Origin: a virus
Lineage: Duplodnaviria; Heunggongvirae; Uroviricota; Caudoviricetes
IMG/VR virus record: IMGVR_UViG_641522625_000005
DNA: 23,396 nucleotides
Direction: 5' to 3' (one strand)
Of this stretch, positions 1,532-20,987 are shown piece after piece (position 1 is the first letter of the stretch; each line of letters starts with the position of its first letter). The notes under the pieces were generated by a model. It was not told the origin of the DNA. It did no database searches and worked only from the letters and a program-made list of their open reading frames with translations. Made by a program: the position numbers and the translations under genes.

Positions 1532-1741
1532 TTAATTTGAATACAATGCAATTCTCGAGGACTGAAGTTTCTCGCAATTAAAATTTATCAGTTTTACTTT
1601 CTGCTCTCTGGAAACGCCTGCTTCTTTTTTACCTGAGAGCATTTTTTCGCATTCTGATTTCGTTAGTTTAGATTTTGAATATCTTGTCCAGTTAGTAGGA
1701 GTGCCACCTTCCTTTTCAATAGTGGCGGTAATTTTATACAT
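1532..1741 (-). CDS. rcbA: YdaC/RcbA small protein, 69 aa
   Basis: ATG at 1741..1739 (MYKITATIEKEGG...), 69 aa; overlaps the ralR 3' end by 8 nt. Confidence 0.7.
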   Translation of the reverse strand: MYKITATIEKEGGTPTNWTRYSKSKLTKSECEKMLSGKKEAGVSREQKVKLINFNCEKLQSSRIALYSN

Positions 1742-5387: not shown

Positions 5388-5488
5388 TGTTTTTTAACCT
5401 CAACTCAGATTAAAATTCGTTTTGTTCAGTGAATGATCTTGCCGGATACACACTGTTCATAGCCTGCGCCATACGCAGGCTATTTCTT

Positions 5489-5838: not shown

Positions 5839-6009
5839 TTAAAGTTCATGTGCCATCTGGTCTTTTTCGGCACAAGCTTCACTGCAATATTTTCTCGGTT
5901 CGTCTTTTGATAAAATCCCGTGCATGAAGTGAAGCATTCTTTCAATAGCTTTGCTTTCTTCAACGTCTTTTTTGCAAAGGTGGTAAGCACATTTTATTTT
6001 CTTAGTCAT
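5839..6009 (-). CDS. ydaE: YdaE Cys-rich small protein (metallothionein-like), 56 aa
   Basis: Hand-translated from the minus strand (not in the ORF track): [56 protein letters not shown], stop TAA at 5841..5839. Its ATG overlaps the kilR stop (ATGA). Confidence 0.75.
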   Translation of the reverse strand: MTKKIKCAYHLCKKDVEESKAIERMLHFMHGILSKDEPRKYCSEACAEKDQMAHEL

Positions 6010-6230
6010 CACCATGACTCCGCCTTTACAGGTAAACCATCACGACCGAGGAAGACTTTAATCATGCGGTCAGTAATGAATGTTTTTGTGGTCAGGTTAC
6101 GAATATATAGTTTTCGCTTTTTAATATTGTTTGCCGAGGCAATATATGTCCGGCCTTCATGAAGAACATAATCGCCAGGAGTCACACACTGACGTGGTAT
6201 TTCATCAGTTCCGAAGTGATGTGCAATCAT
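6009..6230 (-). CDS. kilR: KilR cell-division inhibitor, 73 aa
   Basis: ATG at 6230..6228 with GGAGA RBS; [29 protein letters not shown]...; 73 aa. Confidence 0.8.
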
Positions 6231-6399
6231 AATTATCTCCATTTTTACAAATGAACTTTGTTGATGCGGTGTCTGGTGCCTCCAGGTGACTGCAACCAGT
6301 TAACAATTACAGTCGGCTTTCCCACCCAAACCAATAAGGACTAACATGACTTTTAACTGTGCCACGTGCGCTTAGCCGCATTCACCGCATCACAAAATT

Positions 6400-6453
6400 C
6401 ACTTTAAAAAGGGCGGACATCAGCCGAACTTCAAGAAAAAAACTGATGCCGCC
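6400..6453 (-). terminator. Candidate intrinsic terminator on the minus strand (11-bp stem with one bulge, 19-nt loop, U5 tail)
   Basis: Arms GGCGGACATCAG (6412..6423) and CTGATGCCGCC (6443..6453); on the minus strand the stem is followed by CUUUUU (complement of 6401..6409). Lies in the kilR-sieB intergenic region. Confidence 0.3.
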
Positions 6454-6671
6454 AGGACTACACACAGCAATGTCGTTATTTACAACCGGAGGCGCACTCC
6501 CACCATTTAAATTTAACAGACAAGACCGACTCTTTATGGATATCGGAAATGCGCCTTCGTGTTGTGCCCGGTTTTATTTCACCACCTCCGGGCTTCGGTG
6601 GTCTCGGCTATACCCCTACAGCGAGAGCTTGTGTTAACATTTCAATACCCTTACAGTTGAGAGTTATTGAT

Positions 6672-7160
6672 ATGTTGGATGTATTTACTCCATTGTTGAA
6701 ACTTTTTGCTAACGAGCCACTCGAAAGACTTATGTATACGATTATCATTTTTGGTCTCACTCTCTGGCTGATACCGAAAGAGTTTACTGTCGCATTCAAT
6801 GCTTATACTGAAATACCTTGGCTCTTTCAGATTATCGTTTTTGCCTTTTCTTTCGTGGTCGCCATTTCCTTCTCAAGATTGCGAGCACATATTCAAAAGC
6901 ATTATTCATTACTACCAGAGCAACGAGTATTGCTTCGTTTATCTGAGAAAGAAATCGCTGTATTTAAAGATTTCCTTAAAACAGGAAATCTTATTATCAC
7001 TTCTCCTTGCCGTAACCCGGTTATGAAAAAATTAGAACGGAAGGGCATCATTCAACATCAGAGTGATAGCGCAAACTGTTCTTATTATCTCGTCACCGAA
7101 AAATACTCCCATTTTATGAAGTTATTCTGGAACAGCAGGAGTAGACGTTTTAATCGTTAG
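6672..7160 (+). CDS. sieB: SieB superinfection exclusion protein, 162 aa, membrane
   Basis: ATG at 6672 (MLDVFTPLLKLFANEPLERLMYTIIIFGLTLWLIPKEF...), hydrophobic N-terminal segments; stop TAG 7158..7160. The ORF-track 5' extension to 6549 is unlikely. Confidence 0.8.
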   Translation: MLDVFTPLLKLFANEPLERLMYTIIIFGLTLWLIPKEFTVAFNAYTEIPWLFQIIVFAFSFVVAISFSRLRAHIQKHYSLLPEQRVLLRLSEKEIAVFKDFLKTGNLIITSPCRNPVMKKLERKGIIQHQSDSANCSYYLVTEKYSHFMKLFWNSRSRRFNR

Positions 7161-20412: not shown

Positions 20413-20987
20413 TGGCATTCAGAATGAGTGAACAACCACGGACCATAAAAATTTATAATCTGCTGGCCGGAACTAATGAATTTATTGGTGAAGGTGATGC
20501 ATATATTCCGCCTCATACAGGTCTGCCAGCAAACAGTACCGATATTGCACCGCCAGATATTCCGGCTGGCTTCGTGGCTGTTTTCAACAGTGATGAGTCA
20601 TCGTGGCATCTCGTTGAAGATCATCGGGGTAAAACGGTTTATGACGTGGCTTCCGGCAACGCGTTATTTATTTCTGAACTCGGTCCGTTACCGGAAAATG
20701 TTACCTGGTTATCGCCGGAAGGGGAGTTTCAGAAGTGGAACGGCACAGCCTGGGTGAAGGATACGGAAGCAGAAAAACTGTTCCGGATCCGGGAGGCGGA
20801 AGAAACAAAAAACAACCTGATGCAGGTAGCCAGTGAGCATATTGCGCCGCTTCAGGATGCTGCAGATCTGGAAATTGCAACGGAGGAAGAAATCTCGTTG
20901 CTGGAAGCATGGAAAAAGTATCGGGTATTGCTGAACCGTGTTGATACGTCAACTGCACAGGATATTGAATGGCCAGCACTGCCGTAG
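20412..20987 (+). CDS. tfaR: Tail fibre assembly protein, 191 aa
   Basis: ATG at 20412 overlapping the stfR stop; 191 aa, the typical Tfa position. Confidence 0.9.

What the first reader, a model, noticed from the sequence alone, without database searches (positions are those of the whole stretch)
6231..6671. 440-bp kilR-sieB divergent intergenic region with a minus-strand terminator-like hairpin
kilR (leftward) and sieB (rightward) diverge from this unannotated region; any PL transcript must cross sieB antisense to reach kilR. A bulged 11-bp stem (6412..6453) followed by U5 on the minus strand could stop such read-through. The region may also hold an sRNA or independent promoters for kilR and sieB (possible -35 TTGTGT 6629..6634 and -10 TACAGT 6652..6657 for sieB).
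Basis: seen in the sequence. Interest (0 to 1): 0.4.

Follow-up and report, generated by a model that had tools for sequence, protein, structure and literature searches.

The report
KilS small RNA upstream of kilR
The hairpin is real, but it is the terminator of KilS, a small regulatory RNA published in 2021 that is made from the leader of the Rac prophage toxin gene kilR; here it also turns out to be a relative of the prophage RNA DicF and to carry the same 16-base stretch as the core E. coli small RNA RprA.

Summary
The window is the Rac prophage of E. coli K-12.

The feature is already published. Bar et al. 2021 (PMC8175672) describe the Hfq-dependent sRNA KilS at MG1655 1,418,502 to 1,418,405, which is window 6503..6406. 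It has a dRNA-seq start site at 6503, an RNase E site at 6472 and its 3' end on the last U.

Three points are added here:
- **DicF paralogue.** KilS matches Rfam DicF at 39 bits, below the cut-off of 48. Homology runs from the stem to the kilR ribosome-binding site, in the same position as dicF-dicB.
- **Prophage family.** KilS belongs to a large Enterobacterales prophage family with an invariant 15-nt stretch, UUGCUGUGUGUAGUC, and a covarying terminator.
- **Shared seed.** That stretch sits directly after the RNase E site and is identical to the conserved 3' region of RprA.

The 163-nt kilR leader closes into a 21-bp helix. This is the region where RNase III cuts the homologous dicBF transcript.

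The proposed sieB promoter is a chance-level 7/12 match.

Verdict: observation confirmed, sRNA and terminator reading right, feature already known.

The parts
6566..6593 (-). Hairpin GCCCGG...CCGGGC. A published 'orphan' Term-seq 3' end lies 3 nt downstream, at window 6563 (MG1655 1,418,562). It marks the end of a transcript that enters from the sieB side.
   Evidence: Sequence. Adams et al. 2021 supplementary file 1. The coordinate offset of 1,411,999 was calibrated on the uspF and racC-antisense terminators and confirmed by the KilS 3' end landing on the last U.
6510..6518 (-). Probable KilS/kilR promoter: an extended -10 TGtTAAATT, 6 nt upstream of the mapped start site, with no good -35.
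   Evidence: It is the only minus-strand sigma-70-like match placed to give a start at 6503. The TGTCGTTAAAT motif is conserved in Rac-type and Qin-type relatives. Promoter activity is inferred, not shown.
6406..6503 (-). KilS primary transcript, 98 nt (MG1655 1,418,502 to 1,418,405). In the predicted fold the 5' 45 nt pair with the seed and hide it.
   Evidence: Bar et al. 2021, Table 2B and supplementary Table 6: dRNA-seq start site 1,418,502, northern signal in stationary phase that is absent in the hfq deletion, RIL-seq partner yncL. Fold -34.9 kcal/mol, z -3.3.
6472..6472 (-). Reported RNase E cleavage site (MG1655 1,418,471), 2 nt upstream of the invariant seed. Cleavage here would give a 67-nt form (window 6472..6406) with the seed near its 5' end.
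   Evidence: Clarke 2014 site as listed in Bar 2021 supplementary Table 6. In the fold of the 67-nt form the seed is largely unpaired.
6456..6470 (-). Invariant 15-nt seed UUGCUGUGUGUAGUC. With A6471 it forms a 16-nt stretch identical to the conserved 3' region of RprA.
   Evidence: The motif was part of the search pattern that collected the family. Everything around it varies: 56 distinct sRNA-body variants, 82 counting flanks, from at least 120 viral-contig stretches plus hits in 24 representative genomes. Rfam RprA alignment. RprA sequence checked against the annotated rprA gene. 0/2000 shuffles reach a 16-nt match.
6406..6453 (-). Intrinsic terminator of KilS: an 11-bp stem with bulged U6417, a 19-nt loop, C, then U5 (6410..6406). 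It is homologous to the DicF terminator.
   Evidence: The 3' end was mapped by RNA-seq in Bar 2021.
6243..6405 (-). Structured kilR leader. A 21-bp closing helix (6403..6383 with 6271..6250) encloses three smaller helices. It is about 80% identical to the dicF-dicB spacer and is the predicted RNase III substrate on read-through transcripts.
   Evidence: Pairwise alignment. RNAalifold consensus: 45 pairs, 7 with compensatory changes. Weak Rfam STnc100 match at 28 bits against a cut-off of 47. RNase III produces the 72-nt DicF 3' end 19 nt past its terminator (PMC5069750).
6009..6240 (-). kilR Shine-Dalgarno GGAG (6240..6237) and coding sequence (start ATG 6230, 73 aa).
   Evidence: RefSeq annotation. 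PHROG Kil, E 7e-35.
6672..7160 (+). sieB coding sequence, 162 aa as annotated. The upstream in-frame ATG at 6549 would give 203 aa, but the extension matches no family.
6629..6657 (+). Present, but weak and unsupported.
   Evidence: 7/12 match, one of seven comparable plus-strand matches in the region.

Best explanation
The hairpin is the Rho-independent terminator of KilS, an Hfq-dependent small RNA made from the 5' leader of the Rac prophage toxin gene kilR.

Shown by others:
- Transcription starts at window 6503 on the minus strand.
- The RNA ends on the last U at 6406, giving a 98-nt species.
- It accumulates in stationary phase and is not detected in the hfq deletion strain.
- An RNase E site lies at 6472.
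- KilS forms RIL-seq chimeras with yncL.

Shown here:
- KilS is a paralogue of DicF. The terminator hairpin and the whole downstream leader are homologous to the dicF-dicB segment of Qin-type prophages and occupy the same position, just upstream of a cell-division inhibitor in the early-left operon.
- It is one member of a large Enterobacterales prophage family. The only invariant part is the 15-nt stretch UUGCUGUGUGUAGUC, 2 to 4 nt ahead of a GC-clamped, covarying terminator.
- That stretch equals the conserved region just upstream of the RprA terminator.

Inferred mechanism:
1. Most transcripts from the promoter upstream of 6503 stop at the terminator. This keeps toxic kilR off and yields KilS.
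2. In the primary transcript the seed is paired with the 5' leader. RNase E cleavage at 6472 frees it close to a monophosphorylated 5' end, as happens for DicF.
3. The freed seed pairs with C/A-rich mRNA sites such as the yncL 5' UTR.
4. Transcripts that read through, or arrive from upstream, fold the 21-bp leader helix. RNase III cuts it, separating the sRNA from the kilR message, as in dicBF.
5. Rho/NusG silencing of kilR, known from the literature, acts on top of this.
For: Identity with KilS:
- Coordinates, start site, RNase E site, probes and northern description are in PMC8175672.
- The probes map to window 6413..6435 and 6454..6483.

DicF paralogy:
- Rfam DicF matches 6466..6411 (-) at 39.1 bits, E 5e-7. 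Genuine DicF scores 76.7 bits by the same method.
- Homology to the dicF-dicB locus runs from window 6455 to 6250.
- Most E. coli genomes carry about 80% identical copies upstream of dicB.
- On an otherwise about 85% identical upstream scaffold, the DicF and KilS-type seeds align.

Family, structure and seed:
- Family size and variants.
- Covariance model and stem covariation.
- Seed hidden in the 98-nt form and exposed in the 67-nt form.
- RprA identity.
- Leader helix.
- RNase E and RNase III biogenesis of DicF: PMC5069750.
- yncL -38..-17 pairs with the seed; the 16-nt seed gives -15.7 kcal/mol, in the top 3.9% of background windows.
- Rho/NusG silencing of kilR: PMC5793797, PMC12482147.
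Against: - Published Term-seq of wild-type MG1655 in three conditions lists no 3' end at about 6406. KilS is therefore low-abundance outside late stationary phase. dicF is missing from those tables too.
- The KilS score is below the Rfam DicF cut-off.
- How well the terminator stops transcription, and how much reads through, has not been measured.
- The yncL pairing is only modestly better than background: about 4% for the 16-nt seed and about 6% for the 18-nt version.
- The RprA targets tolB-pal-cpoB show no complementarity to the seed.
- One of the two published northern probes covers the 16 nt shared with RprA. RprA is similar in size to KilS (105 against 98 nt) and, from my knowledge, also Hfq-dependent and most abundant in stationary phase. 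I could not tell which probe gave the published blot.
Confidence: 0.85

Rival explanations
1. The hairpin is only an early-left (PL-type) operon terminator, comparable to the lambda tL terminators. It limits read-through from the immunity region into kilR-recET unless a phage antiterminator is present. The short RNA would be a by-product with no function.
For: - Gene order places it in the leftward early operon.
- In phage phiSTEC1589-Stx1c the homologous element lies downstream of an annotated N antiterminator gene.
- A transcript entering from the sieB side exists and ends at 6563.
- kilR is known to be silenced by termination factors.
Against: - A start site lies only 97 nt upstream of the 3' end.
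- The product is not detected without Hfq and forms RIL-seq chimeras.
- The 15 nt just upstream of the stem are invariant while the stem itself drifts with compensatory changes. Selection for termination alone does not explain that.
- The two roles do not exclude each other.
Confidence: 0.1
2. The element is a decayed, non-functional remnant of dicF in a defective prophage.
For: - It scores below the Rfam DicF cut-off, and its 5' region differs from the DicF seed.
- Rac is cryptic.
- K-12 carries a private G-to-A change at 6272 in the leader.
Against: - The same seed and architecture occur in complete phage records from GenBank and in many prophages across Enterobacterales. All 56 distinct sRNA-body variants recovered have the terminator hairpin and U run, and in nearly all the hairpin is intact.
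- The Rac copy scores 66 bits on a model built from other members.
- It is expressed and not detected without Hfq.
Confidence: 0.03
3. The conservation acts on DNA, for example as a module-boundary sequence for recombination between mosaic lambdoid genomes or as a protein-binding site, rather than on a seed in RNA.
For: - The sRNA-plus-leader cassette sits at a mosaic junction and precedes at least six unrelated downstream genes. Its upstream flanks are also unrelated between classes.
Against: - The hairpin next to it covaries as RNA.
- The motif always lies on the transcribed strand at a fixed distance from a terminator.
- An RNase E site lies 2 nt upstream of it.
- The same 16 nt are conserved in RprA, a chromosomal sRNA gene outside any phage.
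Confidence: 0.02
4. The intergenic region encodes a protein: either the 92-aa plus-strand ORF 6359..6637 or a longer SieB starting at 6549.
For: Both open reading frames exist.
Against: - Neither has a PHROGs match.
- RefSeq annotates neither.
- The ORF overlaps the RNA structures that are conserved and covary on the opposite strand.
Confidence: 0.01

Closest known systems
KilS sRNA of E. coli K-12 (Bar et al. 2021, Front Microbiol 12:635070)
   Same: It is the same object. The coordinates 1,418,502 to 1,418,405 equal window 6503..6406.
   Different: Nothing differs physically. The paper's main text does not mention DicF or Rac (term search). In the parts I read it does not mention the RprA-identical stretch, the prophage family or the leader helix.
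DicF sRNA of the Qin prophage dicBF operon (Rfam RF00039)
   Same: - Position in the early-left operon, just upstream of a small cell-division inhibitor gene.
- Homologous GGCGG...CCGCCCUUUUUAAAGUG terminator.
- About 80% identical downstream leader.
- A 5' end made, or makeable, by RNase E, with the seed directly at that end.
- Hfq association.
   Different: - The score is below the Rfam cut-off (39.1 against 48).
- The seed is UUGCUGUGUGUAGUC rather than UUUCUGGUGACGU. The two align, with 2 indels and 3 substitutions.
- The loop differs.
- KilS has its own mapped start site, whereas DicF is cut out of a polycistronic transcript.
- No ftsZ, xylR or pykA regulation has been shown for KilS.
RprA sRNA (Rfam RF00034)
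   Same: The 16 nt AUUGCUGUGUGUAGUC, preceded by AACGA, lie 3 to 4 nt upstream of the terminator stem in both RNAs. RprA is also cut by RNase E to a shorter 3' form (PMC6202311).
   Different: There is no other similarity (28 bits against a cut-off of 70). RprA is a core chromosomal gene under Rcs/Cpx control. Its characterised E. coli seed for rpoS, csgD and hdeD lies further 5', in a stem-loop at about nt 31. What the shared stretch does in RprA could not be checked in the papers I could reach.
STnc100 (Rfam RF02076)
   Same: The kilR leader (6409..6223) and the dicF-dicB spacer both give weak matches to this model, at 28 and 38.8 bits.
   Different: Both are below the cut-off of 47. Nothing is known about its function, and I did not examine the Salmonella locus.
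5'-UTR-derived sRNAs made by premature termination (for example MotR, listed in the same table as KilS)
   Same: One promoter yields either a short terminated sRNA or the full mRNA.
   Different: The downstream gene here is a prophage toxin that is additionally silenced by Rho/NusG.

Membership tests
KilS (published E. coli K-12 sRNA) | Genomic coordinates and strand: MG1655 1,418,502 to 1,418,405, minus | tested here: met
   An offset of 1,411,999 was derived from Term-seq flanking sequences. It puts KilS at window 6503..6406, with the 3' end on the last U of the U5 run. The published probes match window 6413..6435 and 6454..6483 exactly.
KilS (published E. coli K-12 sRNA) | Hfq-dependent accumulation and RIL-seq interactions | not testable with these tools
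   Taken from PMC8175672. Probe 2 may cross-react with RprA.
DicF (Rfam RF00039) | Covariance-model score at or above the curated cut-off of 48 bits | tested here: not met
   39.1 bits, E 5e-7. Genuine DicF scores 76.7 bits.
DicF (Rfam RF00039) | Terminator hairpin and flanks homologous to dicF, in the same position upstream of a division-inhibitor gene | tested here: met
   Alignment from window 6455 to 6250 with dicF-dicB loci. Annotated neighbourhoods.
DicF (Rfam RF00039) | DicF 5' sequence UUUCUGGUGACGUU, used to pair with xylR and pykA | tested here: not met
   It is replaced by UUGCUGUGUGUAGUCC. The two align only partly.
DicF (Rfam RF00039) | 5' end made by RNase E; 3' end made by termination or by RNase III in the downstream helix | tested here: inconclusive
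   An RNase E site is reported at 6472. The 21-bp helix with the same sequence as in dicBF is present. RNase III cleavage has not been shown for Rac.
DicF (Rfam RF00039) | Represses ftsZ translation and blocks cell division | not tested
   No ftsZ sequence was fetched, and I found no experiment on this.
KilS-type prophage sRNA family (defined here) | UUGCUGUGUGUAGUC, a 2 to 4 nt linker, then a GGCGG-clamped covarying hairpin and a U run | tested here: met
   66.1 bits on model R1, which was built without this copy. Covariation statistics.
RprA (Rfam RF00034) | Covariance-model score at or above 70 bits; three stem-loops; Rcs-dependent chromosomal gene | tested here: not met
   28.1 bits, E 0.41. 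Only the 16-nt stretch and the placement of the terminator are shared.
Intrinsic (Rho-independent) terminator | GC-rich stem directly followed by a U run, with RNA 3' ends mapping in that run | tested here: met
   The stem and U5 are in the sequence. The 3' end at the last U comes from published RNA-seq. Efficiency has not been measured, and no entry appears in wild-type Term-seq lists.

The most novel reading that the evidence does not exclude
KilS is the K-12 member of a widespread, so far undescribed class of Enterobacterales prophage sRNAs. Their invariant, RNase E-exposed seed is a copy of the conserved 3' region of the core sRNA RprA, and DicF is a diverged member of the same class. On induction, or in stationary phase, these prophages would then act on part of the RprA regulon or compete with RprA for its partners. 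They would deliver this through a portable sRNA-plus-leader cassette placed in front of varied host-takeover genes.
Probability: 0.3. Interest if true: 0.55.

Novelty: already known. Interest (0 to 1): 0.3.

Why it matters
The flagged hairpin and the sRNA guess are correct but not new: KilS was reported in 2021. RefSeq records show no feature here and Rfam has no family for it, so a sequence-only reader would keep rediscovering it.

The comparative results may be useful to specialists.
- They tie KilS to DicF, which has been studied for 30 years.
- They define a large prophage family with a single invariant seed.
- They show that this seed is shared with RprA and sits right after a mapped RNase E site.

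That gives concrete, testable hypotheses for KilS, whose only reported partner is yncL. It also bears on how expression of the toxin KilR is gated: intrinsic terminator, then an RNase III-type helix, then Rho/NusG. KilR underlies OxyS-induced growth arrest and bicyclomycin toxicity.

Tried and rejected
- **Simple scan.** The promoter and terminator scan found nothing in 6231..6671, because the hairpin loop is too long for its rule.
- **Rfam at curated cut-offs.** Nothing was found in the region, and nothing for 12 + 18 related loci. The family is therefore not in Rfam, and the hits from other genera are not rprA genes.
- **Near-perfect targets.** I searched 1.3 Mb of fetched phage and prophage DNA for targets of the seed. 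Only the antisense of the seed itself appeared.
- **RprA MAPS targets.** I tested tolB, pal and cpoB for complementarity to the shared 16 nt and found none.
- **Term-seq of wild-type MG1655.** There is no 3' end at 6406, and no Rho-termination region is listed for 1,418,0xx to 1,419,1xx.
- **Papers I could not reach.**
  - Not held: Faubladier and Bouche 1994, Conter et al. 1996, Papenfort et al. 2015 and Thomason et al. 2015.
  - Melamed 2016 is held, but its RIL-seq supplementary tables are not.
  - From memory only, the 1994 and 1996 papers may already note a dicF-like sequence next to the Rac kil gene. I could not verify this, so the DicF paralogy may not be new.
- **Uninformative searches.** Two full-text searches matched unrelated words. 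The RNase III cleavage-site paper says nothing on this locus.
- **Coding potential.** The 92-aa ORF and the N-terminal extension of SieB match no family.
- **Genome-wide target prediction.** Not possible, because the whole K-12 genome could not be loaded.

Full report
**What the window is.** The 441-bp query is 100% identical to E. coli K-12 derivatives. It lies in the Rac prophage between kilR (window 6009..6230, minus) and sieB (6672..7160, plus), and RefSeq annotates nothing under it. PHROGs confirms both flanking proteins and finds nothing for the ORFs inside the region. A match covering at least 80% of the region is present in 1758 of 5426 complete E. coli genomes. Its kilR-proximal 170 bp has about 80% identical copies in 4398 genomes, usually several per genome.

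**Checking the observation.** On the minus strand GGCGGCAUCAG (6453..6443) pairs with CUGAUG-U-CCGCC (6423..6412), and C plus U5 (6410..6406) follow.
- The hairpin folds at -19.5 kcal/mol, against -9.5 +/- 2.5 for dinucleotide shuffles.
They are one of seven equally good plus-strand matches in the region.
- A start about 7 nt after that -10 would leave no room for the GAGAG Shine-Dalgarno sequence ahead of the ATG at 6672.

**What it is: a DicF-type element.** A permissive Rfam scan matched 6466..6411 (minus) to DicF at 39.1 bits (E 5e-7, cut-off 48). It matched the segment from 6409 to 6223 weakly to STnc100. Genuine DicF scores 76.7 bits by the same method.
- The about 80% identical copies in other genomes lie directly upstream of dicB in Qin-type prophages.
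- Pairwise alignment shows homology starting at the 5' arm of the hairpin (window 6455) and running to 6250, just before the kilR ribosome-binding site.
- The segment upstream of the stem differs. DicF has UUUCUGGUGACGUU where Rac has UUGCUGUGUGUAGUCC.

**It is already published.** Bar et al. 2021 (PMC8175672) predicted an sRNA from RIL-seq data in 'sieB.kilR.IGR' and confirmed it by northern blot. They named it KilS.
- Coordinates are 1,418,502 to 1,418,405 on the minus strand, classed as kilR 5' UTR.
- The signal appears in stationary phase and is absent in the hfq deletion strain.
- The dRNA-seq start site is 1,418,502 and an RNase E site lies at 1,418,471.
- The RIL-seq partner is yncL.

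I derived the offset between window and MG1655 coordinates (1,411,999) from the flanking sequences printed in the Term-seq tables of Adams et al. 2021. With it, KilS is window 6503..6406. The published probes match window 6413..6435 and 6454..6483. An extended -10, TGtTAAATT (6518..6510), sits at the right distance from the start site and is conserved in relatives.

The paper's main text does not mention DicF or Rac. In the parts I read it does not mention RprA.

**Other transcript data.** The wild-type Term-seq tables list no 3' end near 6406 in any of three conditions, and dicF is absent from them as well. They do list an 'orphan' minus-strand 3' end at 1,418,562, which is window 6563. It lies 3 nt after the hairpin GCCCGG...CCGGGC (6593..6566), in the third condition list, which by the caption's order is M63 glucose. 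So some transcription enters from the sieB side and ends 60 nt upstream of the KilS start. The literature says kilR is silenced by Rho and NusG and derepressed when OxyS lowers NusG.

**The family.** A scan of one genome per species returned 24. About twenty carry the element. Most are Enterobacterales: Escherichia, Shigella, Citrobacter, Enterobacter, Erwinia, Pectobacterium, Mixta and others. A few are records labelled as other taxa, and three lack the hairpin.
- Among 56 distinct sRNA-body variants (82 counting flanks), the 15 nt UUGCUGUGUGUAGUC are fixed. The motif was part of the search pattern.
- The hairpin sequence changes freely while staying paired.
- The upstream flanks fall into unrelated classes.
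- A covariance model built from 13 members, without the K-12 copy, scores window 6470..6406 at 66.1 bits and finds no second copy in the window. DicF proper scores 26.4 bits on this model.
- On the model-aligned set, 97% of stem cells pair (83.6% in shuffles), and 9 of 11 pairs carry compensatory changes. None of 500 shuffles does as well, and slid registers collapse to 32-55%. This alignment was fitted to the model, which favours the structure somewhat.
- None of these loci reaches any Rfam cut-off at the element.
- On a Qin-like upstream scaffold that is about 85% identical, the DicF seed and the KilS-type seed align with two indels and three substitutions. DicF therefore looks like a diverged member of this family.

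**The RprA connection.** The Rfam RprA alignment (28 bits, far below its cut-off) rests on one block, AUUGCUGUGUGUAGUC. This block is upper-case (highly conserved) in the RprA consensus and lies 3 to 4 nt before its terminator.
- I checked the RprA sequence against annotated rprA genes: 100% identity in 5420 genomes.
- A 16-nt exact match was never reached in 2000 dinucleotide-preserving shuffles of the region; the maximum was 15, once.
- RprA is also cut by RNase E to a shorter 3' form (PMC6202311). My recollection that the cut lies just upstream of this block is unverified.
- In KilS the reported RNase E site is 2 nt upstream of the block.
- In the 98-nt primary transcript the block is predicted to pair with the 5' leader. 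In the 67-nt product it is mostly free.
- The characterised E. coli seed of RprA lies elsewhere in the molecule, so what the shared block does in RprA remains open.

**Targets.** The yncL 5' UTR (-38..-17) can pair with the block as 6 + 10 bp around a 5-nt bulge. Measured with the 16-nt seed this gives -15.7 kcal/mol, in the top 3.9% of 2396 background windows. That is suggestive, not decisive. No near-perfect target exists in 1.3 Mb of phage loci. The tolB, pal and cpoB start regions show nothing.

**The leader.** The 163 nt between the U run and the kilR Shine-Dalgarno sequence are conserved as a block in front of at least six unrelated genes: kilR, dicB, and ORFs of 76, 90, 94 and 200 aa.
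- RNAalifold closes the block with a 21-bp helix, 6403..6383 with 6271..6250, around three smaller helices. Seven of 45 pairs carry compensatory changes.
- In dicBF, RNase III creates the 72-nt DicF 3' end 19 nt beyond the terminator (PMC5069750). That position falls in the 5' arm of this same sequence.
- RNase III processing of read-through kilR transcripts is therefore the likely role. This is inferred.

**Verdict.** The terminator and sRNA interpretation is right, and the sieB promoter is not supported. The object is the known sRNA KilS, so novelty is 'already known'. The added value is the placement of KilS as a DicF paralogue within a large prophage family that shares its seed with RprA. 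That may or may not be in older literature I could not read.

Noticed in passing
window 5459..5487 (+): A clean plus-strand intrinsic terminator (10-bp stem, then UUCUUUC) lies antisense to racC. It coincides with a very strong Term-seq 3' end (MG1655 1,417,486) in all three wild-type conditions of Adams et al. 2021. This suggests an abundant, unannotated plus-strand RNA antisense to recE/racC.
   Followed up: partly
window 1557..1735 (+) and 20755..20953 (+): Rfam hits above the curated cut-offs: the RalA antitoxin sRNA (225 bits) and IS009 (221 bits).
   Followed up: no
window 7680 (-) and 8149 (-): Published minus-strand Term-seq 3' ends lie just downstream of racR (listed in the two LB conditions) and inside racR (listed in all three conditions). 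In the third condition the end downstream of racR is not listed, and one at window 6563 is listed instead.
   Followed up: partly
window 6272 (-): K-12 Rac has A where almost all relatives have G. This breaks the basal pair of the conserved small leader hairpin CCUGG-AGGCA-CCAGG.
   Followed up: partly
L043 5552..5643; L014 4111..4198; L053 8099..8189: Family members with long (about 65-nt) terminator hairpins carry a conserved Shine-Dalgarno sequence plus AUG UUC mini-ORF inside the hairpin. This could couple translation to termination. The K-12 copy lacks it.
   Followed up: no
window 6454..6483: KilS northern probe 2 of Bar et al. 2021 covers the 16 nt shared with RprA. RprA is 105 nt against 98 nt for KilS and, from my knowledge, also Hfq-dependent and most abundant in stationary phase. 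Cross-hybridisation is possible if that probe gave the published blot.
   Followed up: partly
L001-L126, leader alignments: The sRNA-plus-leader cassette is a mosaic module found upstream of at least six unrelated small genes in different prophages: kilR, dicB, and ORFs of 76, 90, 94 and 200 aa.
   Followed up: partly
window 6550..6556 with 6490..6496 (-): AGGCGCA and UGCGCCU can pair across the KilS promoter and start site, and they covary with relatives (AAGCGCACGG with CCGUGCGCUU in phiSTEC1589). This helix could form only in transcripts arriving from upstream of the KilS promoter.
   Followed up: partly
window 6549..7160 (+): An in-frame ATG at 6549 would extend SieB from 162 to 203 aa. 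The 41-aa extension matches no family, and some phage records annotate the longer form.
   Followed up: partly
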